From: Marsupella aquatica
Lineage: Eukaryota; Plantae; Marchantiophyta
DNA: 64,000 nucleotides
Direction: 5' to 3'
Assembly: GCA_973895155.1 (NCBI GenBank)
Contig: OZ316894.1
Location: forward strand, 20,094,451-20,158,450
A program made the position numbers and the translations under genes. How positions within the stretch are numbered: the stretch's first letter is position 1; each line of letters begins with the position of its first letter. The notes beneath the pieces were generated by a model. It was given only the letters and a program-made list of their open reading frames with translations. It had not been told where the DNA came from and did not search any database. Of this stretch, positions 979-63,266 are shown one piece after another.

Positions 979-3213
979 TCATTTGCTCTTTTCCATCTCT
1001 GCGCTGAGCATATGATTCAGAAGATTTTGCACACGATTGTCTTTTCCCTTTCTAGCTCTCAAACGGGCTCGTTCACTTTTTGGGTCCCGAGATTGCAATC
1101 CACGGGCTGATTCCTGCTCCCTGTCAATTTCTTTCAATTCTTCCGACATATCTATTTCTGCAAAAAAGGCTTCCAAGACAAACGCCACAATCAAGTTCAG
1201 AAGGAACAAGACACCGATGACATAGAAGCTCATGAAGTACACAACGGCCCACCAGTAAGTTGAGAGGACAGCATAGGTCTCCAACCAACTTTGCCAATTG
1301 CCCATAACTAGCAAGTTGAACAAAGTGACCATCCCTGTTGTGTAATCGTTGAAATTGTGCACAAGGTAGTCACTCTCTTCCATGGGTGTTCCTATCAGCT
1401 TAGGGTTCCCCTGATATACAAGCCCGCCAAGTGTCTGGACCCCAATGGTGCAATAGATACACAACAGGAAGAATATGATCCCCAAATATGGTAACAGATT
1501 GGGAATCAAATTCAGGAATGTCGTCACCTTCACTCGGAATCTTTCCATCAGCATCAGCACCCTTACCAGTCGCAGAAGACGTGCAATCAGAAGATAGCGA
1601 ACCCACTCCGAGTTTTTAATGTAAGGGAGACCGTTGGGTAGGGTAAATGCCAGTGTCTCTCCAATAACTATGATCCAAGTGATGAAGAAATCAAATCTAT
1701 TTGTCCCTGACCGCCAGTAGTTCGTGAACCCGTACACAAGCACTTTCAGGACCAGCTCCACCAGATAAATCCATCCAAAGCTTAGCTCAACTCCCTGCCA
1801 AACTTTTTGAGCCACATCATCCTCTAAATCCAGTGTTGTCTCGATTATAACAGTAATCAAGTTCAGGGTCAGCATTCCTAGTATAATATACTCAAAGGTC
1901 TTGCTTTTCACGAAATCTCGCAGTTTGGTAAAGTAAGAAGAATTGTAGAAGGTCGGGAACTCCTCGAGCAATTGAGGCTGGTCATTCTTATCAAATTTGA
2001 GTGAGATTGCGGCGCAAAGATCTGCGAATTCTACCCTGTTTATCTTGAAGTCACCACTGTCATCCAAGGCAAGAAAGACTGCTTCCATATCCTCATCATT
2101 AATTCTTGGCAGCGTCCTGTACCTGTTCAGCTCTTTGAAAAGCCTTGAACACTGATGAAGATCCAAAGTACCCTTCCCATCTTCATCAAGAAGATTAAAT
2201 GTGGAACTCAAAATTTCACTTCTTGTTTTGTCCACCCCTACAAGATAATGTGCAAGCTGTCCCTTGAAACTGTCATACACAACAGCGAGAACAAGATTGG
2301 TGATAAAGAACACACCGATGAGGATATAGAGAATGAAGAACAAACTCGAGAAACGTGATTGCCTGTATGCTGGCAACCATACATCAGGATTGTTTGAAGT
2401 TGTAAACAGGACCGTCATTTGGTATAATGTTTCGAGATAGGATGTGAAAACCTCCATTCCTTGAACGGTATCCTCAAATAGAACATAAGCCAGCCAGCTC
2501 CAGAAGAGTAGAAACAACAGCGTAAGTGCTGCAACATCTGTGAAGTCTGGTATGATGCCCACGAAAGTCTTTATGCTGTAACGGACGTCAGGAATATTTG
2601 CAACAACAATAAATACCCGAATGTAAGGAGCCAATCTAACGGGCAGAGTACTAATTGCTCCTGAAGGTGACACATAAATTGTGTTCAATATACAGTCAAC
2701 AATCAGCAATAGGATCAGAACAACTTTGAAAGTGTTCAGCTGATTGCCCCAGAAGAGTTTACTCCCCATGAACAGGATTGGGAACAGAGTGTGCACAGAG
2801 AGTATAACTAAACTCACAATCTCAAAACCAAGAGATTCCCATCGAGACAAGTATGGCAACTCTCCCAAATAGAACTTATCCTTCGGGCCACATGGATCCG
2901 GAAAGTCTCCCTTACACCAAAGAGGTACCTCAAAGAAGTTGAGCAGAATGATTACTGCCAAATTGAGAAGCCACACATATCTCAGCTTGGTGTAAACGAA
3001 GTACAGCTTCGTTGCCAGCTCGGAATTCTCCTGCTCCAGTACTTCGGTGGGAATACCCTCCCCATCCTCCGCCAGATCAACCAGAGCAGCGGCTTTCTGA
3101 TACTTGTCACCGGTGGCAATGGCGCTGGCCCTCCCAAACAAATGATATTCCCTCGATCTCTCCTCTGGCCCGTCCCATGACGACTCCCTTCGATCCAACA
3201 ACGACTCCTCCAT
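979..3213 (-). CDS. TPC1: Two-pore channel 1 (slow-vacuolar cation channel), 744 aa, single coding exon
   Basis: Filter motifs TTSNNPDVW and LVMGNWQSW, S10 voltage sensor EWVRYLLIARLLRLVR, two EF-hand loops (DEDGKGTLDLHQ, DDSGDFKINRVE), N-terminal acidic dileucine motif EESLL. First ATG is at 3213 (ORF-track start 3219 is GTG). Confidence 0.96.
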   Translation of the reverse strand: MEESLLDRRESSWDGPEERSREYHLFGRASAIATGDKYQKAAALVDLAEDGEGIPTEVLEQENSELATKLYFVYTKLRYVWLLNLAVIILLNFFEVPLWCKGDFPDPCGPKDKFYLGELPYLSRWESLGFEIVSLVILSVHTLFPILFMGSKLFWGNQLNTFKVVLILLLIVDCILNTIYVSPSGAISTLPVRLAPYIRVFIVVANIPDVRYSIKTFVGIIPDFTDVAALTLLFLLFWSWLAYVLFEDTVQGMEVFTSYLETLYQMTVLFTTSNNPDVWLPAYRQSRFSSLFFILYILIGVFFITNLVLAVVYDSFKGQLAHYLVGVDKTRSEILSSTFNLLDEDGKGTLDLHQCSRLFKELNRYRTLPRINDEDMEAVFLALDDSGDFKINRVEFADLCAAISLKFDKNDQPQLLEEFPTFYNSSYFTKLRDFVKSKTFEYIILGMLTLNLITVIIETTLDLEDDVAQKVWQGVELSFGWIYLVELVLKVLVYGFTNYWRSGTNRFDFFITWIIVIGETLAFTLPNGLPYIKNSEWVRYLLIARLLRLVRVLMLMERFRVKVTTFLNLIPNLLPYLGIIFFLLCIYCTIGVQTLGGLVYQGNPKLIGTPMEESDYLVHNFNDYTTGMVTLFNLLVMGNWQSWLETYAVLSTYWWAVVYFMSFYVIGVLFLLNLIVAFVLEAFFAEIDMSEELKEIDREQESARGLQSRDPKSERARLRARKGKDNRVQNLLNHMLSAEMEKSK

Positions 3214-3360
3214 CGTCACAGAACTCTAATCCCTTCGATTCCCCCCGCCCTCCCCTCACTGTTCAGTCCTGATTGACCTGGACCCAATGCTTGATCTAGG
3301 GGACTAAGTCACCCAAAACTTTTGCGGGTCCGATGCTAAAGTGCTCTGACGAAGAAGGGG

Positions 3361-6677: not shown

Positions 6678-7854
6678 CTAGCAATGGTTCTTCATGATTT
6701 TGCTCTCCTCACGGATCCTTTTCTCTCGCAAGTGGTGCGCTTCCTCCCTCAGAAGGTTTGCATACTGAGTCCCAACACAGTAGCGTTTGACTTCAGCAGA
6801 AGCCTGGGGCGGATGCCTGTTGTTGGGGCTGGGGTATCTCACCTTGGTGGGAGTTGAAAAATGGAGCTTCATCGGATAGTTGGGTCCGAATCTCTCTCCG
6901 TCTGTGTCAACATTCATGTCACAGTTCTTCATCTTTGCTTGCAAGTGGAGCCCTTGCTTACCCCTGTCCGTCCTGCACGTATAGCTCTTGCTATTGGGGA
7001 TCACCTTGATTCCACAAGCGCCAGTGCCCCCCTGCAACCTTATGCCATAATTCCCTGGATAAGTTCCGGGCATGAACTCTTCTCCTACTGCCCTTCCACC
7101 GGCCCCTCGTCCTGCTCCCCCTCTCCCTCCACGTGCTGGGGAGCTTTGGAGCTGTCTGCCACTGTGGTGCATCTTCTCCTTGAACTCGGTGTTCCTTCCA
7201 AAAGCACAGTAACCATGGGCATGGGATCTGTGGATGTTCCGATTGTAGGGATGTGGACCATCTTCTTCTTCAATACCATTCTGTGGTCCTCGTCGTCTCC
7301 CCGGGCTCCGGTGTGGAGCTGAATAGCATCTGGGTGATCCAGCCCTAGGGGGATTCAATCCTCCGTGGGAATTCACACAGTTGTTTCCATTGCTAGCAAT
7401 TTGGTTGGTCCCCCTGCCAGTTGCTGTTTTGAGAGGAGAATTGCTTCTTGACTGCATTAGGGATGCCAGCTGGTCCTTGGCATCGTTGAGAGCTTGAGCT
7501 AAACCTGACACGATGTCCCAAATCGGCTCCACGGTTTTCGGTGCCTCCCCTGCTTCGTTAATCCTTTGCTGCTGCTGCTGCTGCTGGCGCGGTACATGTC
7601 CAACGCTTTTGTTGTTGTATATTACATTGGTGTACTTCGCCTGCGCAGACGGAAATATGACGAGAACTGTTAGTGAGAATGAAACTATCAATTCATCTTC
7701 GATGGAGTCCCTTACAATCGATAATCTCCTCATACCTTCTATAACCACTGACAACGAAAAACTCAAGAGACAGAACATAGAGTGGAAAGAATCGTACCCC
7801 TGGTTTCAGCAATCCATGGTAAGGGCATGGCGCTCCAGAAGGGAATTTGGCCAT
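6678..7854 (-). CDS. Uncharacterised basic Gly/Arg-rich protein, ~339 aa, 2 coding exons (7854-7798, 7640-6678)
   Basis: gcaATGG start at 7854, phase-0 GT-AG intron 7797-7641 gives MAKFPSGAPCPYHGLLKPG|AKYTNV...; polyQ, helical segment, RGGRGGAGRG box. No family recognised. Confidence 0.65.
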
Positions 7855-11550: not shown

Positions 11551-11782
11551 ACACGTAGACGAATAAACACTGTGCATCGACCGACCCATGATCACGGTTG
11601 CTTTGGAACAGCAGCTTATATCCTCGGAGAGTGCTTGCTTATTGACTACGACAATACAATTCCCCAGCGTGTAGACTTAGTGCGTAGCAGACTCAGGACC
11701 TTAAGTGTACAGCTGACGTCCATAAAGACATTCACGAGAAGCCTTGTTATTTAGTAGATCGACCACAATTTAGTAACATTCC

Positions 11783-14700
11783 ATGCCGATGGAGGCTCTT
11801 GCTCCTCAGGACACTTCTCCTCTGGCTGATTTGGGCGTCCCTAAGGAGGTGAAGCAGATCGCATCCTGGGATGCTCCCAGACAAGTGACTGCTCCGGTGC
11901 ATGTAGCAGCAGAGCCTGAAATAAACCTCACAAAGATAGAGACGGAGTTTCTAGAGATTCTTCAGGAGCAAGTTGAGTCTCATAGGATCGACGAAGGGGC
12001 TCAAGAATATGAGTGGCACTTGTTTTTGAGGAACCTCTCGCCCCTGACTCCAACCGAGTGTACTGACATGGACGAAAATGGGCCCCTACAAGAGGGAGAT
12101 CCAAGTTGTGAAGATCCTTCCCTCGGTGAATGGGAGTCGCTCTTGGACAGGCTTTCAAAGCTGGAAACCTCCGTAGTACAGCAAATTCTTGGACACATTG
12201 AGTCTGATGTTCTTCAAGGAATGGTCCGATTTATGCACCTTCGGATAACCCGAGACACATCTGGAGGAGCTCCTTGCGAGGACTCCATTGCCCTGCCTAA
12301 CGAAGAGGTTCCTCTTAGTAATCCTCCCAATGAACCACTTCAAGAAGAACCCGAGACAATACAGTCCGTACCAGAATTGGATTCGAACACAGAATCTGTA
12401 ATGGAGGAGTTTCCTATTCTCGGGAAACATGGAATGGATTGGCTCCGTTGGCCCCAAGGAAGCAAGACCCGACCCCGGTCCGAATCCGTACAGCCCACAT
12501 ACTTTTTCCGGACAGGTGAGCAAGCCAACCGGGATCCGCTTGGACATTCATCACATCAAATCGAGTCAAAGCTTGAGGGAACTCTCCAGGTGTTTCAGCA
12601 GCAGTTGACGCCACAGAGCCTGCCTATGACATTGTCCCAAATTCCGGAACGAGGCAAATCAGGCATTTTCGAGCAGCCGGAGCACGACACGGACTTAAAG
12701 CCAGAGCGAGACTCTCAGGTGCGGGTGCCACAGGACTTGCTTCCAAAAACACCCTCACAAGGAGAGTCAGATCAAGAGGAAGTTCACGTAGAACAGACTG
12801 AGTCAGAGCCAGAGCTAGTCTCCGACAGGCCGGACACTGGACCGCAGCATCTTACCGATTCGGATTCTTGCAGGATATGCTCCCAAGGAATCGAGTCACA
12901 GCTTGCAGAGCTTCCGAGCCAGATTGCTTCCACTTTATTCATGAGAACTCCCCTAACTATGGATTCGAATCTACTCCATCAACTGTTCAGGCAGATTGAT
13001 CAGATTCTGTTTCAGGTAATGCCCAAGCAGAACAAGGCTCATGTGCACTGGCACGTGCCTCCAGATTGTTCTCTTCGGAGACACCTCGATGACGGTGTGG
13101 ATCCCCAATACTCTGAACTGAATGAACTGGAAGTGTTTAATCCTCAACATCGGCGTCAATTCCAGTCCGTTACCAAAGTTCGAGAAAATCTTCAGCAGAC
13201 TGCACAAGTAAATGTGCTCGCCAATCACTTAGGACGGACAGAATTGGATCAAATGTGTTGGCAAGGAAATCAGTCCCTCAATTGTCAAGACGTGCACTCC
13301 AGCAGTGCTTTTTGCCAGCACAGTCCTTGCCTACGGTCTGCTGTGTTTAAATACTCTGCAGCAGTACCCAACCACTTAGAGCTCTTACCCGACCTCATGC
13401 TGGACTCCAGTATTAGTGAGAGTCTAAGATGTCCAAAACTAGATGCAATGTCTTTCATCTCCTCTTGTATAGGTGGCGGGACTATTTGGAACCCACAGAT
13501 GATCGTGACAAAGCTACCCTCTTCAACGTATCCATTTCTTCTGGGTAGCTTGCCTCGTCCTGAAATGATCGACGACTTGAAACTACCTCAAGATGACTCA
13601 GACCAAAATATAGCACAAGCGCTCCCAATTGCTGACGAGTTAAACTCAGAGATTTTTCAGGGCATGGACTCGATTCATCACATGTGCGCGGGGTTGCCTC
13701 AGGAGAACCAGCAAGTGCAAAAGCACATGCCCTCACAGACTGACACAGACTTTGCAAATTTGCTACCCCAGGCGTCCGTCGATTCCCCTTTCCAACAGAT
13801 CGATGCAGTAGAACTCCAAGCATTGCGCCAGAATATGTGCTTAACAGTTCTCCAACAGATTGCCAAGCAGGTGGAGTACAACATAAGTCAGGGACTTCCT
13901 CTCGAAATTAATGCGGGCTTACTAGAGGCCCTCGATCTGCAGCCAGAGGATTATTGGCTACAGCCTTCTGGACAGATAACGGAGCCAAACCATGAATATT
14001 TCCAACACTATCCTGATGAATCCTGGGATCTTCAGGACGTAGATATTGACTCAGAAGCCTGCCCAGAAACCTCCCAACAGACTGGAAACTTCAACTACTT
14101 CAGAGAGTCGCATGAAAGTATGTTGAGACAGTCTACTGTAGAGAGTTCCACATCAGGCTGGACAAGTGATCTTAGCGAGACAGAGAGCCCTCCGTCCTAC
14201 ATGGTAGACCCGGCCAGGAAGGTCTACCATCCACATTACAGCTACAAGCACAGCCATGTAGACAGCCTGGGACTGCCAATTCCCCACGGAAAGTTCTTCG
14301 ACGAGTTTGAAGAACTCCACGGGAGTGCTCTGGAGTCTGGCATGCCACTGTATACCCCACCACTGGACTTTTTTGACGACGTTAGCCAATACTTGGACTT
14401 GGCTGACACCGCAGAGGACGATCTTGAAGATGGGTTCGAAAGATCGCCTGACTACATGAGCTCTTTGAATTTGCTCTGGGTGCCCGAGCAGGAGCTGCAG
14501 CAGCAGTCCGAATTCATTCAGTACGAACCAGACGATGAAATTGGTAATGCAATTGATTTCTATTTAGAGGGACTGGCGGGCACTGCCTCGGACTTGATTT
14601 GGTTTCTGGACCCAGACGAGAGTCTCAAGTCAGCTGCAGCTCTCGAAGAACAAGACGACGTCATAGCGAACGATCTTCCATACGATTTGGGTGTCTCAGG

Positions 14701-15559
14701 TGACCTTCAAGTGGATGAGGACTTTTCCGGGTCCTCGGCGGAACACATGTTGGACTCGAATGAGACGGAAGAGCCATTCCTTCAAGGAACTGACTCGAGC
14801 TCAAGGAGTTCTAAAGCCCAGGATGAGAGTGCGACCTCAACCACGACTTGGGATAAGACTGAACAGCTTCAGGCGAACGCACAGCTTGAGCATCTGCGTT
14901 GTGACTGTTATCCACCTCAGCTTCTTGAGGCAGCCGGACTGCAAGACTCACGTGGAGTTCAGCCAGTGCGTCTGCATCAACGAAGGATATCTGTTGAATG
15001 GAACCCACAGATTGCATCCGTCAACTCCATGAATGACTTAGGGGAAAGTGAGTCCAATCCAGCTCCGAATCCAGACCAACATGACGATGGCAGCAAAACT
15101 CCAAACCCAGCTCAAGGAACTCGGAATGACCACCATACTCTCGGCTCGGAAATTTCTGAAGGACCTCAAATGAATGCGACAAGCTCTGAAAGGCAATCAT
15201 CACCAGGGCAAGGCAATGGAACGCCTCCACAAATTAACACAAGCGCAGGAACTGACGAACGTGTGGAGGATCAAGGAGCTTCAGCACCGGACTCACCGGC
15301 ACTGAGCTCTTCCGTGGTGGAACTCACAAATGGTAGAACAAATCAGAGGGCTCCCACAGTTTCTCAGTTTCGTGATCCATCTACGTCCGTCCGCCGCACG
15401 ATCGTCGGACTCATGGTTGTCGCAGGCGGCTTGTATTTGGTTGATAATCGGGATGCGATCGAGCAACAATCCGTTTCTGCAGCAGAAGCTGCCGCAGAAG
15501 CGTGGAGATGGCTGGGTAGCTTTCTAATCAGAATGGCCAAAGGAGAATTTGACAACTAA
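11783..15559 (+). CDS. Large acidic, probably disordered orphan protein with a C-terminal hydrophobic anchor (1258 aa, single exon)
   Basis: 3.8-kb uninterrupted ATG-started ORF, far too long for chance; E/D/S/Q/P rich; IVGLMVVAGGLYLV near the C-terminus. No transposon or known domain motifs recognised. Confidence 0.8.
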   Translation: MPMEALAPQDTSPLADLGVPKEVKQIASWDAPRQVTAPVHVAAEPEINLTKIETEFLEILQEQVESHRIDEGAQEYEWHLFLRNLSPLTPTECTDMDENGPLQEGDPSCEDPSLGEWESLLDRLSKLETSVVQQILGHIESDVLQGMVRFMHLRITRDTSGGAPCEDSIALPNEEVPLSNPPNEPLQEEPETIQSVPELDSNTESVMEEFPILGKHGMDWLRWPQGSKTRPRSESVQPTYFFRTGEQANRDPLGHSSHQIESKLEGTLQVFQQQLTPQSLPMTLSQIPERGKSGIFEQPEHDTDLKPERDSQVRVPQDLLPKTPSQGESDQEEVHVEQTESEPELVSDRPDTGPQHLTDSDSCRICSQGIESQLAELPSQIASTLFMRTPLTMDSNLLHQLFRQIDQILFQVMPKQNKAHVHWHVPPDCSLRRHLDDGVDPQYSELNELEVFNPQHRRQFQSVTKVRENLQQTAQVNVLANHLGRTELDQMCWQGNQSLNCQDVHSSSAFCQHSPCLRSAVFKYSAAVPNHLELLPDLMLDSSISESLRCPKLDAMSFISSCIGGGTIWNPQMIVTKLPSSTYPFLLGSLPRPEMIDDLKLPQDDSDQNIAQALPIADELNSEIFQGMDSIHHMCAGLPQENQQVQKHMPSQTDTDFANLLPQASVDSPFQQIDAVELQALRQNMCLTVLQQIAKQVEYNISQGLPLEINAGLLEALDLQPEDYWLQPSGQITEPNHEYFQHYPDESWDLQDVDIDSEACPETSQQTGNFNYFRESHESMLRQSTVESSTSGWTSDLSETESPPSYMVDPARKVYHPHYSYKHSHVDSLGLPIPHGKFFDEFEELHGSALESGMPLYTPPLDFFDDVSQYLDLADTAEDDLEDGFERSPDYMSSLNLLWVPEQELQQQSEFIQYEPDDEIGNAIDFYLEGLAGTASDLIWFLDPDESLKSAAALEEQDDVIANDLPYDLGVSGDLQVDEDFSGSSAEHMLDSNETEEPFLQGTDSSSRSSKAQDESATSTTTWDKTEQLQANAQLEHLRCDCYPPQLLEAAGLQDSRGVQPVRLHQRRISVEWNPQIASVNSMNDLGESESNPAPNPDQHDDGSKTPNPAQGTRNDHHTLGSEISEGPQMNATSSERQSSPGQGNGTPPQINTSAGTDERVEDQGASAPDSPALSSSVVELTNGRTNQRAPTVSQFRDPSTSVRRTIVGLMVVAGGLYLVDNRDAIEQQSVSAAEAAAEAWRWLGSFLIRMAKGEFDN

Positions 15560-24500: not shown

Positions 24501-26330
24501 TCAGTACTTTGTGTATAGAACATCCTCCCAAGGATGTCGGTATAGAGGCTGCTTCAACCTCTTCTGATCGAAAGTGTGCCCAATGAGGCCAATACTACGG
24601 GCTAGCACAAAGAGCCCATTCAAGTAACCAATTTCTACAATTTCGTCTATTTCCTGCTGTGAGAACAAGCTGGAGCTCACAAGGAGATCCAGGAATAGCG
24701 CTCCTATACAACCATCGACGTTCAACACCAAATTGTTTCCCTTCGTCAAGGTATACGTCTCCACAGTGACCGCATATTCCATATACTTCACGGAAGGAAA
24801 GTGGGTGCGTGCATATTCTTGGAGCAATTGCACCCGTTTGTCCCGGTTGTCACGGCTCTTGATCCTATGCCCAATTCCAGGGACTCGGATTCCCTTCTTC
24901 TTCATCGCTTCCACGAATTCGTAGGGAGTGAGTTTCTTATCATATGCATCTTTGAAGTACCGAGCTGCGTCATCGACAGCCCCGCCGAAGCGAGGACCGA
25001 TGGTGAGAAGCCCGGACACAAGACAAGACACCAAGTCTTTACCAGCACGAGATGTGACAATCGCGTTGTGAGCACCAGACACACAGGGTCCGTGATCCGC
25101 GCACAGCACGACGCACATCTCGATGAATTTCGTGCAGTAGCGAGGCAGGCTACGCTTGAACCAAAGGAGAGAAATAACATCACCAATGCCGTAGTCTTTC
25201 TCGATGATGGTGGACATCGGAACTCCGGCATAAGTTGGCTCCTCTCCCCTGTCATCACAAATGGTAGACACGATGTGCGTCGGCGCTCTCACTCGCCCGT
25301 TCTTGATCGCAACGTTGAGATCCTCAGGCACCTTCGGCGGGCTGGAGCTGACTACGGGAGTGATGACTTTCTCTGCTAGCAATCTTTCGTACGTGTCCTT
25401 GACGGCCTGCTCAAAGGATTCAAAAGAAGTTGGGACAATGGCACCTGCTTTCTGCAGTGCCTTGTTCTTTGCTTGGGCCGACTCCAGCTCTCCGCCGCTC
25501 TTGGCACCAGCATGGCCAAACTGAACCTCTGACTTAAACAGCGACGCGCAAGTGCCGCTAACCCAGGCCACCACTGGCTTCTTCACTTTCCCTTGTTGTA
25601 TTGCGTCGACTAAAGAGTACTCATCCTGACCGCCTAATTCTCCCAAGACAACTATCATCTTGATCTGCGGTATGTTGTTGAATCGGAGGACGTGATCAGA
25701 GAGAGTGGAACCTGGATAAGCATCTCCGCCAATCGCAATTCCTTCGTAAAGACCGTCGGTCACCCGTGCGAGTACATTGTACATCTCGTTCGACATGCCG
25801 CCAGATTTCGAGACGAACCCGACCGATCCCGGGCGGTAGAGCTTGCAGTGGACGATGTTGTCCAAAGTGCCTGCAGTGTCCCCGATCTTGAACGCTCCTG
25901 CCTGTATGCCTCCCACTGTGGCAGGCCCGATGATCACCTTGTTGTTGGCCCGGGCGTAAGCAATGAGCTTCTTCGCATCGCCTTCTGGAACCCCTTCTGC
26001 AATTATCGCTACAACCCTGACCGTGGGCTGGAGCAGAGCCTCCATCGATGAGGCGAAAGCGCTCCGGAAGGACGCGAAGTTGATGAACACATCTGCAGTT
26101 GGATGGGCCTTGCAGGCCGCTACAATTGATCCATGGACGGGGATAGCGATCTCCTCCTGTCCGAAGAAAAGCTTCTGGAAGCCATCTGAGCCGGGGTTGA
26201 TCACCCCTGCCACTGAGGGGACCTCTCGTCCACAGAGGAAATCGAAATCGAGCATCCGCTGCACGGGGCTCTGTTTGTAATTGTAGAAAAGAGCTTGTGT
26301 CGTCCGCGAGAAGAGCTGTCCGGATGCCAT
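24501..26330 (-). CDS. ACLB: ATP-citrate lyase subunit B (609 aa), single coding exon
   Basis: MASGQLFSRTTQALFYNYKQ start, phospho-His motif FGHAGA, citrate-synthase-like DHGPCVSGAHN and GIGHRIKS, C-terminal YRHPWEDVLY. Confidence 0.97.
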   Translation of the reverse strand: MASGQLFSRTTQALFYNYKQSPVQRMLDFDFLCGREVPSVAGVINPGSDGFQKLFFGQEEIAIPVHGSIVAACKAHPTADVFINFASFRSAFASSMEALLQPTVRVVAIIAEGVPEGDAKKLIAYARANNKVIIGPATVGGIQAGAFKIGDTAGTLDNIVHCKLYRPGSVGFVSKSGGMSNEMYNVLARVTDGLYEGIAIGGDAYPGSTLSDHVLRFNNIPQIKMIVVLGELGGQDEYSLVDAIQQGKVKKPVVAWVSGTCASLFKSEVQFGHAGAKSGGELESAQAKNKALQKAGAIVPTSFESFEQAVKDTYERLLAEKVITPVVSSSPPKVPEDLNVAIKNGRVRAPTHIVSTICDDRGEEPTYAGVPMSTIIEKDYGIGDVISLLWFKRSLPRYCTKFIEMCVVLCADHGPCVSGAHNAIVTSRAGKDLVSCLVSGLLTIGPRFGGAVDDAARYFKDAYDKKLTPYEFVEAMKKKGIRVPGIGHRIKSRDNRDKRVQLLQEYARTHFPSVKYMEYAVTVETYTLTKGNNLVLNVDGCIGALFLDLLVSSSLFSQQEIDEIVEIGYLNGLFVLARSIGLIGHTFDQKRLKQPLYRHPWEDVLYTKY

Positions 26331-27056
26331 TTTGCCCCTGCCAGCAGAGTCCCTCGCTCCCTCCCTGATTGAGATGCTCTTCTACTACCCTGCGCTGATT
26401 GATAATCTTCCCTTTCCTAAACGCCCACCTTGAAACTCCTTTCCACCTGCTGAAGGCCAGCCCACACAGCTCACAACCTGGTCCGTAATCCGCAGACGAC
26501 CAACGCCTCACGAATAATCCCAACTCTGTCCTCCTGTGCTCGTCTCGTCCGAATTATCAAGGATCAATCCATCCCTCGCATCACCGTTTGACCAACGCAG
26601 CCACGCACTTTAACATGGATTCTCGCGGCCGGCCACTTCAACTCCCAAATCAAGGGGAATTGGATCCGTCTCGCTCACCCACTGTCGATCACAATCTTGG
26701 TCACTCTCCGCTGCGTTCGTCATGAAATTCGGTCTTGCAGCGACAGTAGGTGCAGCGACAATGCATCGAGATGGTGCTGCCAGATCCGCCAACCATGAAA
26801 TGCGGAGGAGACTGCTGGTAGATACCTTTCCTCGCAGACGACGATGACGCGAAAGCTCCACTGGTCGTTTGTACACCCAGACCTGTGATTCCTCTCCGTC
26901 CGCTCTTTCTGCTGTATTGTTGGCGACTCCGTGCCCGGCGAGTGACTCCCACTCCCAGCGGCCTCAGCCGGGTTACATGGCGGAGCCCCGTTCCCACTAA
27001 CAGAAGAGTGGACTTTGTGGTGTGCGGGCTGGTGACAGGCAATATTAGGGGATTGA

Positions 27057-41059: not shown

Positions 41060-43647
<2,588 letters not shown>

Positions 43648-56735: not shown

Positions 56736-57813
56736 GGCAGGTACAAGACGGTGAATTTCACTTCAGACTACATACAGCAATCAGTTCCTCGTCAATATAT
56801 GAATGCAGTTTATTTTCTCATCGGCTGTTTTCTTGATCAAGTCGTGTTCCTTACCGCGATTTCCTGTCGTGATTCTGCTACCACACAACTCGCGCATCGT
56901 GTTTGCTAACTCACTGGTTGTTCCCTTGAACATTCTCCTTCAACGATTTGGGTGCTGGTTGCAATGGCAGCGTTAAGGACGACCATTACATCGGCGAAGC
57001 AGTCTCACGTTCCCATTCCAGGTGACCTCATGGTTCTCGCATATTCAATCGTAGCTATCTCCGAACGTCGTGGGGTCAAAATTAATGGTGAAATGTTGCA
57101 GTTCAACCTTCAAGAGTCTTTCCAGAGATTAACGATGAATGTCTGACATTTCTCTCGGCATCAAACGTTTTCGGAAGACAGTGCTTAGAGCAATTGAGGT
57201 TTATTTGACAGTGTTCAAGCTTTTAGAGTCTTTCCAGATATTATCAATGAAGTGTCTGACTTTCCTCTCGTTATCAAACAGTTCCGAAGACTGTCTTGGA
57301 AGGATACAGTTTTATTTGATCTCTTACACTCGATGCTATTAAGTTTTCGTGCTAACGATACCTCTTCTGACAGCTGGAAGAAATCTTCCTCGCCAAACGA
57401 CATCTAGCAGTGTGGTCCAATTTTCGATACGGAGACCCTCTGTGACCATTCTTAATGGCAAGTGTGGATCAGCTCTTAGGTGGACGAACAGCGGAGGACT
57501 TGGAAATTCACTATCTCACTTTCTACCTTGCAGATCTCAAACTGCTAAAGCTGGTAAGAAAAGCATGTCATTCCAGTTGAAGATCATGATCCAAACTCGG
57601 TCTACTATTCCGAGTTAGCATTCACCAGTATGGTTTCCCACCAATGCTCCATAATTAGCCTGTACAGAAATTTGTTGCCTTCCAACTTGGTCAATTTCAC
57701 TGTTAATTACGAGTGACTTATCGTAGACTCTGCTTTAGAACGTTGTTGCTGAAGTTGCATATCTTTGACATTGTAATGTACATTCAGGTCGTCCACAAAC
57801 AAACTTACAAGTG

Positions 57814-58953
<1,140 letters not shown>

Positions 58954-60790: not shown

Positions 60791-60909
60791 GGACTCGCAT
60801 CGCCTGCTGAGAATTATGCTCTCTGGATGACGAAGTCAATCGGTGCATCACAAACAATCTCTTGCGTGCATTGCAGTAAAGTCGCACATATGCCAGACTT
60901 GCAATTGCT

Positions 60910-63001
60910 TCAAGAAACCTCACACCCTTCTTCAGATGTCGCACATTCTCCTTGAGTGGCACATGATACTTTCAGAACCTGGACGAATGTATCAGGAGCA
61001 GACTCAATTCCTTCTAATTCCATTTGGTAATATAGTGCTAACGCATTTTGACATTGCCCGCTATTGACATACCCCATAATCATTGCAGTCCAAGCAGCTA
61101 CATCCCATACGGGCATCTGGTTGAACACAGTCCATGCATCTTCTATGCTCCCACACTTAGCATACATATCGACTAGGCTGGTACCAACAAAAACATCTGA
61201 CTGACATTGGTTTTGCATGATATCTCCATGAACGCGCCTGCCTTCGTCCAGTGCCCCCAAACTCGTGCATGCATTGAGTATCACTGCAAACGTCGTAGGG
61301 ACTGGCGTCACACCTTGTTCTAGCATTTGCCTGTAAAGATCTACAGCCTTTGTTGCTAGCCCACATTTCACATATCCTGTAAGAATTGCATTCCAGGAGG
61401 CTACATTCCGATTTTCCATATCATCGAACACCTTCTTTGCCTCTTGCATTCTCCCACATTTGGCATACATGTCGACAAGAGATGTGCTGACAAAGACGTC
61501 AGATAAACAGCCACTTTGAATGATCTGGTCATGGACACACTTACCTTCTGCTAGTGCCCCTACGCTGGCACAGGCATTCAGAACCCCTACAAACGTGAGA
61601 GGTACTGGCTCAACCTGTCGCAATTCCATCAGCCCATACAGTTCTAATGCCTTTCGTCCTTGCCCACACTTAACATATCCCATGATCAAGGCAGTCCAAG
61701 AGGCCACATTGTCAGTGCCGGTCTTTTGGAAGACTTCCAGTGCCTCATCAATGCTCCCACATTTGGCATACATGTCAATTAGGCTGCTACTCACAAATGG
61801 ATCTGAATCGCAACCACTTTGAATGACTTGTGCATGTATTCGTTTCCCTTTTTTAAGTGCTCCAACATTTGCACAGGCATTTAGGACACCCACAAAGGTG
61901 ACAGCCGCTGGCTCCACCCGTGCCACTTTCATCAAGTCATACAATTGTAATGCCTTTTGTCCTTGATCACATTTCACATACCCTACAATCATGGCGGTCC
62001 AGGTAACGGCATCCTTTGCAGGCATCTTATTGAACACACGACGTGCATCCTCTGCGCTCCCACATTTAGAATACATATCAATAAGGCTGGTCCCTACAAA
62101 AAGATCCCGTTCCAAGCCACTTTCTATGATCAATGCATGGATCCGCTTGCCTTCCTCGAGGGCTCGTAAATTACCACATGCCTTGAGCACCGGGACAAAG
62201 GTGAATGTGTCCGGATTCCTCCCCTCGTTTTGCATCTGTTGAAAAAGCTCCAGCGCCTCAACCTCTTGCCCATCTCTTACATATCTCGCCAGTTTTTTAT
62301 TCCAGAACACAACCGGTAGTTCTACGGTTCCTGGTGCCATTGCAGCCAGCTCTACTTTCACCCATTCAGGATTTGAGTTGTCATGGATCCAAAGCGCTTC
62401 CCCTGTCTTCTTATGTTTGAAGTCGGGATATCTCGCACTTGTCTACCCACCAGAAAGCCCAAATCAAGTTCGTTAGTCGTTGAATTGTCATAACCCGAGG
62501 TTGATATAAACAGTCACGCCCTAAATTAACTACTATTCAAAGAAGCCATGTAGCAGCATCTTCTTACAATGAAAATCACTGTGATGTGCATTCCATTTTG
62601 CAAGGGATAAGTGAAGTATTCACCTTACCCAACCTATGGTCCCACCATTGCGATGGGTCGATGAAAAACTGTCTCCAGCGTTCTTCGACTACACTTTTCT
62701 TGCCTGCCACGATTCCAGGTTCGAAGTTGTAAATTGGGGCCAGCTTCTGGAGCTGTAAGCTCGATGACGATCGCCTCAAGGCACGGAACAGCACTGGTCC
62801 GAATCCAGTCCCGGCCGCTCCCATGAAGGGAGCTGGAGCGGAGGAAGACGAGCAGGGCATCGGCAGAGCCGAGCATGGAATCGGCGCTGTGGAACCCACA
62901 TAGGAGGAGCCAGCCTCCGATGCGAGCGAACAACGCATCAACGGAGCAGCAGCTGATGACGATCCTCCTCCTCCTCCTCCGCGCAGGAACGCAGCAGCCA
63001 T
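60910..63001 (-). CDS. Organelle-targeted PDF-motif (OSB-type)/PLS-class PPR fusion protein, 636 aa; exons 63001-62624, 62442-60910
   Basis: Phase-0 GT-AG intron joins two ORF-track entries, giving transit-like N-terminus + WRQFFIDPSQWWDHRLGK|TSARYPDFKHKKTGEALWIHDNSNPEWV + (P-L-S)x4-P-partial L; no E/DYW. Confidence 0.9.
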
Positions 63002-63003
63002 GC

Positions 63004-63266
63004 TCAATCACCTCTGGCACTCGAAGGACTACATTTGTGGGCGATTTCTTTCTTGAAGCTCTCTCGAGCCATGGTCACAATCAGCTGGGCCTAGAATGAC
63101 TGCCTTTGTGCGCATTTCTTGAGGGGTGCACTGTCGATTTGTGCTCACTGCTTTCCCTCCCTCTCGGTGACATTCTCATGCCTGCCTTTCTGCCTGCGTG
63201 CCACGAAGCTTTTGCCCTCTCACCAAGGCAAGAACACGAACGAAATCGAGAACGAGCAATTGCCAT
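63004..63266 (-). promoter_or_regulatory. Two consecutive upstream ORFs (63266-63081, 61 aa; 63072-63004, 22 aa) before the PPR ATG
   Basis: gccaccATGG and gtgaccATGG contexts; gaps of 8 nt and 2 nt to the next ATG. Confidence 0.45.

What the first reader, a model, noticed from the sequence alone, without database searches (positions are those of the whole stretch)
60910..63001. Hidden chimera: OSB-type PDF ssDNA-binding motif fused to a PLS PPR array without editing domains
Seen: splicing 62624^62442 creates EERWRQFFIDPSQWWDHRLGKTSARYPDFKHKKTGEALWIHDNSNPEWVKVEL directly ahead of 13 PPR motifs; the motif is invisible in the ORF track because an intron cuts it. Known: W..WWD.R..K....PDFKHK.TGEALW...P.WV is the PDF motif of plant organellar ssDNA-binding (OSB) proteins, where it accompanies an SSB-like OB fold; PLS PPRs normally end in E1-E2(-DYW) and act in RNA editing. 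Here there is no OB fold and no E/DYW. Inference: a protein coupling ssDNA binding to sequence-specific RNA binding, e.g. recognising R-loops/transcription bubbles, tethering transcripts or editing complexes to the nucleoid, or locus-specific recombination control. I know of no functional description, but cannot exclude that similar fusions exist unannotated in bryophyte proteomes.
Basis: partly seen in the sequence, partly recalled or inferred. Interest (0 to 1): 0.88.

Follow-up and report, generated by a model that had tools for sequence, protein, structure and literature searches.

The report
PDF-motif PPR protein lacking editing domains

Summary
Observation confirmed. A 181-nt GT-AG intron (62623-62443) splits the motif; splicing gives a stop-free 636-codon frame: targeting-like leader, PDF motif, 13 P-L-S repeats, no E/DYW. 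Contigs of an RNA-like run from a related organism are spliced exactly there, while DNA runs cover the intron. An orthologue labelled Calypogeia fissa has the same junction and stop; its PDF is 93% identical, its repeats 81%. The motif is 56% identical to named OSB2 PDFs. The chimera is not unique: 141 collected proteins carry PDF ahead of PLS repeats (Sphagnum, Calypogeia, Diphasiastrum, two ferns), 116 with E or DYW ends. The PDF is therefore chiefly an add-on of editing-type PPRs, and this gene is an editing-less member whose P repeats have lost the usual last code residue. Best reading (0.5): a non-catalytic organellar RNA factor (splicing or stability, like moss PpPPR_9/31) whose PDF clamps single-stranded nucleic acid beside the PPR footprint. 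The nucleoid or R-loop tether is a live rival (0.2). No binding was tested. Ten literature searches found no description. This scan noted the family at least nine times before in moss DNA; new here are the splice evidence and the conserved editing-less state.

The parts
62693..63001 (-). Exon 1, N-terminal leader (aa 1-103), Ser/Ala/Gly/Pro-rich and acid-poor, probable organellar transit peptide; start at 63001 or 62938
   Evidence: Residues 1-100 hold 17 S, 17 A, 14 G, 10 P, 6 R+K, 2 D+E; an X1 contig covers 62624-62973; targeting is inferred from composition only
62624..62692 (-). First part of the PDF motif (aa 104-126), end of exon 1
62443..62623 (-). 181-nt phase-0 GT-AG intron inside the PDF motif; the same position is used in moss-type loci L073, L076, L079
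62338..62442 (-). Second part of the PDF motif (aa 127-161), start of exon 2
62314..62337 (-). 8-residue linker (aa 162-169) of nearly fixed length in the family
   Evidence: 8 of 8 identical to P0003; length 8 in 42 of 51 relatives, 9 in two, 1 in one, not measurable in six
60997..62313 (-). 13 PPR motifs, (P-L-S)x4-P (aa 170-608); S motifs keep canonical purine pairs TD, SN, TN, TD; P motifs read ND, TA, TV, NV, TA
60910..60996 (-). Truncated L-like tail and stop codon; no E1/E2/DYW follows
   Evidence: Same end in P0003; an X1 contig aligns without gaps over 60908-61102 and its match stops just past the stop codon

Best explanation
This gene encodes a spliced, conserved PLS-type PPR protein with an N-terminal OSB-type PDF motif and no editing domain, which is likely imported into plastids or mitochondria, where its repeats likely read a loosely defined purine-rich RNA stretch while the PDF motif would clamp the neighbouring single strand without regard to sequence, so that it likely helps splice or stabilise a transcript rather than edit it. 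Shown: gene structure, junction use in a related organism's RNA-like run, conservation, family membership, lack of E/DYW, degenerate last code residue in the P repeats. Inferred: organellar import (leader composition), RNA as ligand (PLS class and the E/DYW-bearing family), PDF as an avidity or unfolding module lying 5' of the PPR footprint (N-terminal position and fixed linker; PPR polarity recalled), and a splicing or stability role (precedent of PLS-only moss proteins). In the E/DYW-bearing relatives the same module would be a built-in helper in lineages that lack MORF proteins.
For: The PDF is more conserved than the repeats between the window and P0003 (54 of 58 against 355 of 439). In 12 moss-type loci with long frames pooled dN/dS is 0.11 for the PDF and 0.31 for the first triplet. 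All columns invariant in OSB PDFs are kept. 116 of 141 PDF+PLS proteins end in E or DYW, and the DYW domains show HSE and CxxC and mostly a PG box, so the family's native ligand is RNA. The linker length is nearly fixed and the first P motif has N at position 5 in 33 of 33. The last code residue is D/N/S in 104 of 110 P motifs of the family but in only 1 of 5 here, and the orthologue is likewise degenerate; weaker base reading fits a need for extra grip. PLS proteins without E/DYW act as group II intron splicing factors in Physcomitrium (PpPPR_9, PpPPR_31; PMC9459714, passages). MORFs are absent in that moss (PMC7190159, passage).
Against: No binding, localisation or target was tested. OSB proteins prefer ssDNA over RNA in vitro (PMC4166229, passage), which argues for a DNA ligand of the PDF. 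Physcomitrium DYW factors edit alone in E. coli, so a helper module is not generally required. Synonymous sites in the dN/dS test are near saturation (pS 0.65) and the pairs are not independent. Degenerate code residues could also mean the repeats no longer read RNA specifically.
Confidence: 0.5

Rival explanations
1. Nucleoid or R-loop tether: the PDF binds ssDNA of transcription bubbles or R-loops while the repeats bind the nascent RNA, so that processing (and, in relatives, editing) happens co-transcriptionally at the nucleoid.
For: The PDF alone suffices for ssDNA binding in OSB1 and OSBs prefer ssDNA to RNA (PMC6963530, PMC4166229, passages). The signature residues are fully kept. Some relatives carry 2-4 PDF copies like OSBs (64 of 141).
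Against: No direct test. The short fixed linker in this subfamily suits binding the same strand next to the footprint better than bridging two molecules (inference). A single PDF without the OSB oligomer may bind DNA weakly (inference).
Confidence: 0.22
2. Sequence-guided ssDNA factor: both modules act on single-stranded organellar DNA, and the repeats direct an OSB-like anti-recombination activity to particular repeats or origins.
For: OSB mutants alter recombination at subsets of repeats (PMC13393729, passages). This member has no editing domain. Designer PPRs binding ssDNA is recalled, not checked.
Against: The family is dominated by E/DYW editing architectures, and the window gene sits among DYW- and E-bearing members in the tree (97/89). 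A separate OSB gene is listed for Marchantia.
Confidence: 0.1
3. Editing specificity factor that borrows a DYW domain in trans.
For: Trans DYW donors exist in flowering plants (PMC10226603, passage). DYW-bearing paralogues are labelled from the same liverwort genus (P0040, P0345).
Against: It lacks the P2-L2-S2-E1-E2 end; the trans partners described are E+ proteins (PMC9459714, passage).
Confidence: 0.08
4. Passenger or structural cap: the PDF exon came along with a targeting exon, or only caps the first repeat, and binds no nucleic acid.
For: The first P motif is invariant at its code positions, as a structural cap might be. Many family copies end early and may be decaying (38 of 73 motif rows meet a stop within 250 codons; some may hold further introns).
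Against: The PDF is the most conserved part and keeps the basic and aromatic OSB signature in liverwort, moss, lycophyte and fern members.
Confidence: 0.1

Closest known systems
OSB proteins (AtOSB1-4; Zaegel et al. 2006 not held, seen through PMC6963530, PMC4166229, PMC6451138, PMC13393729)
   Same: The ~50-residue PDF motif, 32 of 57 identical to OSB2-named proteins of Morus and Cannabis; probable transit peptide.
   Different: No OB fold; the PDF is N-terminal and single, followed by 13 PPR motifs. None of 148 scanned representatives held both SSB and PPR families.
PLS-type PPR proteins without E/DYW (PpPPR_9, PpPPR_31, PpPPR_25; Arabidopsis PDM1/SEL1), PMC9459714
   Same: P-L-S array ending without editing domains; PpPPR_9 is listed as (P1-L1-S1)x3-P2 and helps splice cox1 intron 3.
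   Different: No PDF motif is mentioned for them (0 hits for 'pdf' in the review); their sequences were not compared here, so orthology is untested.
PPR-E/DYW C-to-U editing factors of seed-free plants
   Same: Same PLS repeat types; most PDF-bearing relatives are of this kind (53 DYW, 63 E of 141).
   Different: This member lacks E and DYW and has non-canonical last residues in 4 of 5 P motifs; the N-terminal PDF is not part of the described architecture.

Membership tests
PDF motif (OSB type) | ~50-residue motif with the W, P, WWD.R..K, PDFKHK, LW and P.WV signature | tested here: met
   Every column at 100% in 27 SSB-bearing PDFs is matched by the window; 32 of 57 identity to OSB2; Atlas label PF30937 shared with an SSB-family cluster, TM 0.85 (the family's name was not shown)
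PDF motif (OSB type) | Binds single-stranded DNA | not testable with these tools
   Needs a binding assay
OSB proteins | SSB-like OB-fold domain | tested here: not met
   No SSB Pfam hit in either exon; the spliced frame leaves no room between leader and PDF
OSB proteins | PDF motif(s) at the C-terminus | tested here: not met
   PDF at aa 104-161 of 636
OSB proteins / plant PPR proteins | Organellar transit peptide | tested here: inconclusive
   Composition fits; no predictor or localisation available; start codon uncertain
PLS-class PPR proteins | Repeating 35-35-31 P-L-S motifs | tested here: met
   helical-repeat model of P0003 with pLDDT mostly 70-90 over the array
PLS-class PPR proteins | Sequence-specific RNA binding by residues 5 and last | tested here: inconclusive
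   S motifs canonical, 4 of 5 P motifs non-canonical at the last residue; no target searched
PPR-E/DYW editing factors | E1-E2 motifs and DYW deaminase (HxE, CxxC) | tested here: not met
   the same stop in the orthologue P0003

The most novel reading that the evidence does not exclude
Seed-free land plants have, perhaps more than once, bolted the OSB ssDNA-binding motif onto their PLS-PPR(-DYW) proteins so that RNA editing and processing factors dock on single-stranded DNA of the organellar nucleoid (transcription bubble or R-loop) and work co-transcriptionally; DYW-bearing members could then even reach ssDNA cytidines. The editing-less member here, with relaxed base reading, would be a general RNA-to-nucleoid adaptor.
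Probability: 0.2. Interest if true: 0.9.

Novelty: new variant of a known kind. Interest (0 to 1): 0.6.

Why it matters
PPR editing factors are a heavily studied family and are used for programmable RNA editing, yet a second nucleic-acid-binding module on a large share of them in peat mosses, a liverwort, a clubmoss and ferns seems to have gone unremarked. It offers a testable answer to how plants without MORF helpers support PLS proteins, and possibly a physical link between editing and the nucleoid. This intact, spliced, non-catalytic member isolates the binding function, and a 57-residue module with no solved fold is easy to assay and to add to synthetic PPR editors.

Tried and rejected
No whole genome is held, so copy number in this organism could not be counted. 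No run on record as RNA holds the stretch; X1 is only guessed to be RNA. A hidden downstream E/DYW exon was sought and not found in the window. The Pfam copy on hand has no model that names the PDF. No solved relative by sequence (one chance hit, E 0.79), by Foldseek against PDB or viral models (0 hits at E 0.001) or by VIA-align (best Z 2.4); the PDF model (pLDDT 84.5, helix, three short strands, helix) matches nothing clear, which does not show a new fold. The single-sequence model of P0003 left the PDF unfolded, so PDF-PPR packing is unknown, and no complex prediction was obtained. A PDF-only tree placed PPR-fused motifs in separate groups, but one origin was not rejected (p-AU 0.149), so repeated fusion is unproven. 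Weak Atlas matches to 187-residue phage proteins (TM 0.65, under the naming bar) were not followed. No organellar target search was done: no plant organelle collection is available and the predicted pattern is too loose. Whether OSB genes share the intron was not testable (no OSB locus examined). Literature: ten searches gave no paper describing PDF with PPR; the 2026 OSB survey has no 'PPR' or 'pentatricopeptide' in its text and no 'PPR', 'pentatricopeptide' or 'DYW' in three supplement files, and it kept only proteins with both PDF and OB domains. Zaegel 2006 and most subscription papers (for example Gutmann 2020) were not seen, so a mention there or in their supplements is not excluded.

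Full report
Gene structure. On the minus strand a frame opening at 63001 runs to a GT at 62623; a 510-codon frame runs from 62442 to a stop at 60910. The 181 nt between them end in AG, hold stops in all frames and are AT-richer than the exons. Removing them gives 636 codons without a stop. The product has a Ser/Ala/Gly-rich, acid-poor leader of about 100 residues, the PDF motif at aa 104-161, an 8-residue linker, 13 motifs of 35-35-31 residues, (P-L-S)x4-P, and a 28-residue broken L-like tail. Pfam gives PPR families and no SSB, E or DYW. C-terminal parts of four DYW-bearing relatives find no E or DYW exon anywhere in the window.

The junction is used. No run on record as RNA holds the stretch, but run X1, guessed to be RNA and from another organism, behaves as spliced RNA. 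One contig stops at the acceptor and continues with the last bases of exon 1. Another begins at the donor and is preceded by the first bases of exon 2. A third, more diverged contig joins across with a net loss of 181 nt. X1 has no cover inside most of the intron, while X3, X4 and X5 have contigs through it. An X1 contig also aligns without gaps across the stop codon, and the match ends two bases beyond it. Of the X1 differences that the tool listed (40 of 403 rows and 40 of 72, of which I classed 40 positions), 23 codons were synonymous, 15 were not, and none made a stop. This is one run of a relative, not the organism itself. The first ATG appears as GTG in the X1 contig, so the start may be the Met at 62938.

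Orthologue. The best protein hit, P0003, labelled Calypogeia fissa, is 80% identical over 571 aligned residues, has the same junction and ends at the same residue. The two group at 100/100. The window is therefore likely a leafy liverwort, and the loss of E/DYW is older than the split of the two species. The PDF is 54 of 58 identical, the linker 8 of 8, the repeats 355 of 439.

The motif is an OSB-type PDF. A profile from 11 PPR-fused copies hit 1,172 representatives at E 0.001. Of 148 of the top 150 scanned, 24 carry Pfam SSB, 10 carry PPR families and none both. Several SSB-bearing hits are named OSB2 or OSB3. The window motif is 32 of 57 identical to two OSB2-named proteins and keeps every column invariant in 27 OSB copies. 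The Atlas aligns it by predicted structure with an SSB-family cluster (TM 0.85) and three PPR clusters, two named DYW, all under the label PF30937. Reviews state that the PDF is sufficient for ssDNA binding and that OSBs prefer ssDNA to dsDNA or RNA (PMC6963530, PMC4166229, PMC6451138; passages). The protein is not an OSB, since the OB fold is absent.

The fusion is a family. The first search returned 51 proteins of 94 candidates; 37 have a full PDF and most end in E or DYW. A second profile returned 305 hits; about 80 of the 120 listed are Diphasiastrum PPR proteins, and the six rows labelled as seed plants carry no PPR family. Named PDF-PPR proteins come from Sphagnum, Calypogeia, Diphasiastrum, Adiantum and Pteridium, the last from a transcriptome. 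After dropping 54 cluster isoforms, 141 of 302 PDF-bearing proteins have PLS repeats downstream: 53 DYW, 63 E only, 25 neither, by regular expression, with at least one false DYW call and many partial gene models. These counts are biased by queries built from fused copies, and absence from seed plants, Physcomitrium or Marchantia is not shown. A metagenome scan confirmed 510 stretches and kept the best 80. Three of them (L073, L076, L079) have a GT-AG intron at the same place in the motif as the window. The ranking favours uninterrupted copies, many of which end early. A shared intron, a shared linker and one side of a branch at 94/85 point to one old origin for the liverwort, moss and one lycophyte subfamily. 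Other lycophyte and fern copies fell elsewhere, but a single origin of all was not rejected. In 12 loci that I chose for long frames, pooled dN/dS is 0.11 for the PDF and 0.31 for the first triplet, with synonymous sites near saturation.

What is special about this member. Residues 5 and last of P and S motifs specify bases, while L motifs act mostly as spacers (PMC7190159, passages). Here the S motifs read TD, SN, TN, TD (G, A, A, G by the recalled code), but the P motifs read ND, TA, TV, NV, TA. In 33 relatives the last residue is D, N or S in 104 of 110 detected P motifs, and P0003 supplies three of the six exceptions. So the lineage kept its purine/pyrimidine-reading position 5 (14 of 14 the same in both species) but relaxed the second, while holding the PDF nearly fixed.

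Mechanism. The family's majority architecture is an RNA editor, so the PDF most simply serves RNA work: a non-specific single-strand clamp just 5' of the PPR footprint that adds avidity or keeps RNA open. MORF proteins raise PLS affinity in flowering plants and are absent in Physcomitrium, so a built-in helper is plausible, though moss DYW factors work alone in bacteria. Without E/DYW this member cannot edit by itself. PLS-only proteins PpPPR_9 and PpPPR_31 are splicing factors (PMC9459714, passages), the nearest functional precedent. All functional steps are inferred.

Novelty. Both modules are known and the proteins lie in public proteomes as plain PPR or DYW proteins. Ten searches of the held library found no description of the combination, and the 2026 OSB survey (PMC13393729; passages and three supplement files) does not mention PPR. 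PMC6627324 (passages) added nothing. Subscription papers were not seen. This scan's own notes already record the family at least nine times from moss DNA, one noting that the liverwort protein lacks the editing end; these are unchecked AI notes, and my family result was reached before reading them. The additions here are exact splice evidence, a conserved editing-less orthologue pair, the shared intron and the relaxed P-motif code. Verdict: new variant of a known kind, interest 0.6.

Noticed in passing
window 61764-62492 (as matched by other contigs): Runs of the same organism hold a diverged second copy: a 5,708-nt contig matches 61764-62455 with 99 differences and 21 gap positions, a 1-nt loss is listed at 62207, and another contig matches the intron's 3' end. 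It is likely a decayed paralogue with the same intron.
   Followed up: no
window 62766-62872 and 62971-63010: A different contig in all laid runs (depth 125 in X1) shares these two pieces of the leader exon, so another expressed gene has a related targeting region; its identity is unknown.
   Followed up: no
window about 57760-58953 (+): Multi-exon plant globin gene convergent with the PPR gene (Pfam Globin in 2 of 3 exon frames scanned).
   Followed up: partly
window 979-3225 (-) and 24501-26381 (-): A two-pore-channel-like gene (two Ion_trans stretches with EF hands) and an ATP-citrate-lyase-like gene each lie in one uninterrupted frame; that their flowering-plant homologues are intron-rich is recalled, not checked.
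   Followed up: partly
window 42010-43647 (+): PAS, F-box and Kelch domains: a ZTL/FKF1-like protein (name recalled).
   Followed up: partly
window 11777-15559 (+) and 6678-7805 (-): Open frames of 1,260 and 375 codons with no Pfam match at E 0.001.
   Followed up: no
proteins P0064, P0065: Proteins with 11-13 tandem PDF motifs and no Pfam family; P0064 is labelled Kingdonia, P0065 is an unnamed record with diverged repeats.
   Followed up: no
Atlas rows 6-7: 187-residue phage hypothetical proteins match the PDF model over 56-58 residues at TM 0.65, under the naming bar; a possible lead to the motif's origin.
   Followed up: no
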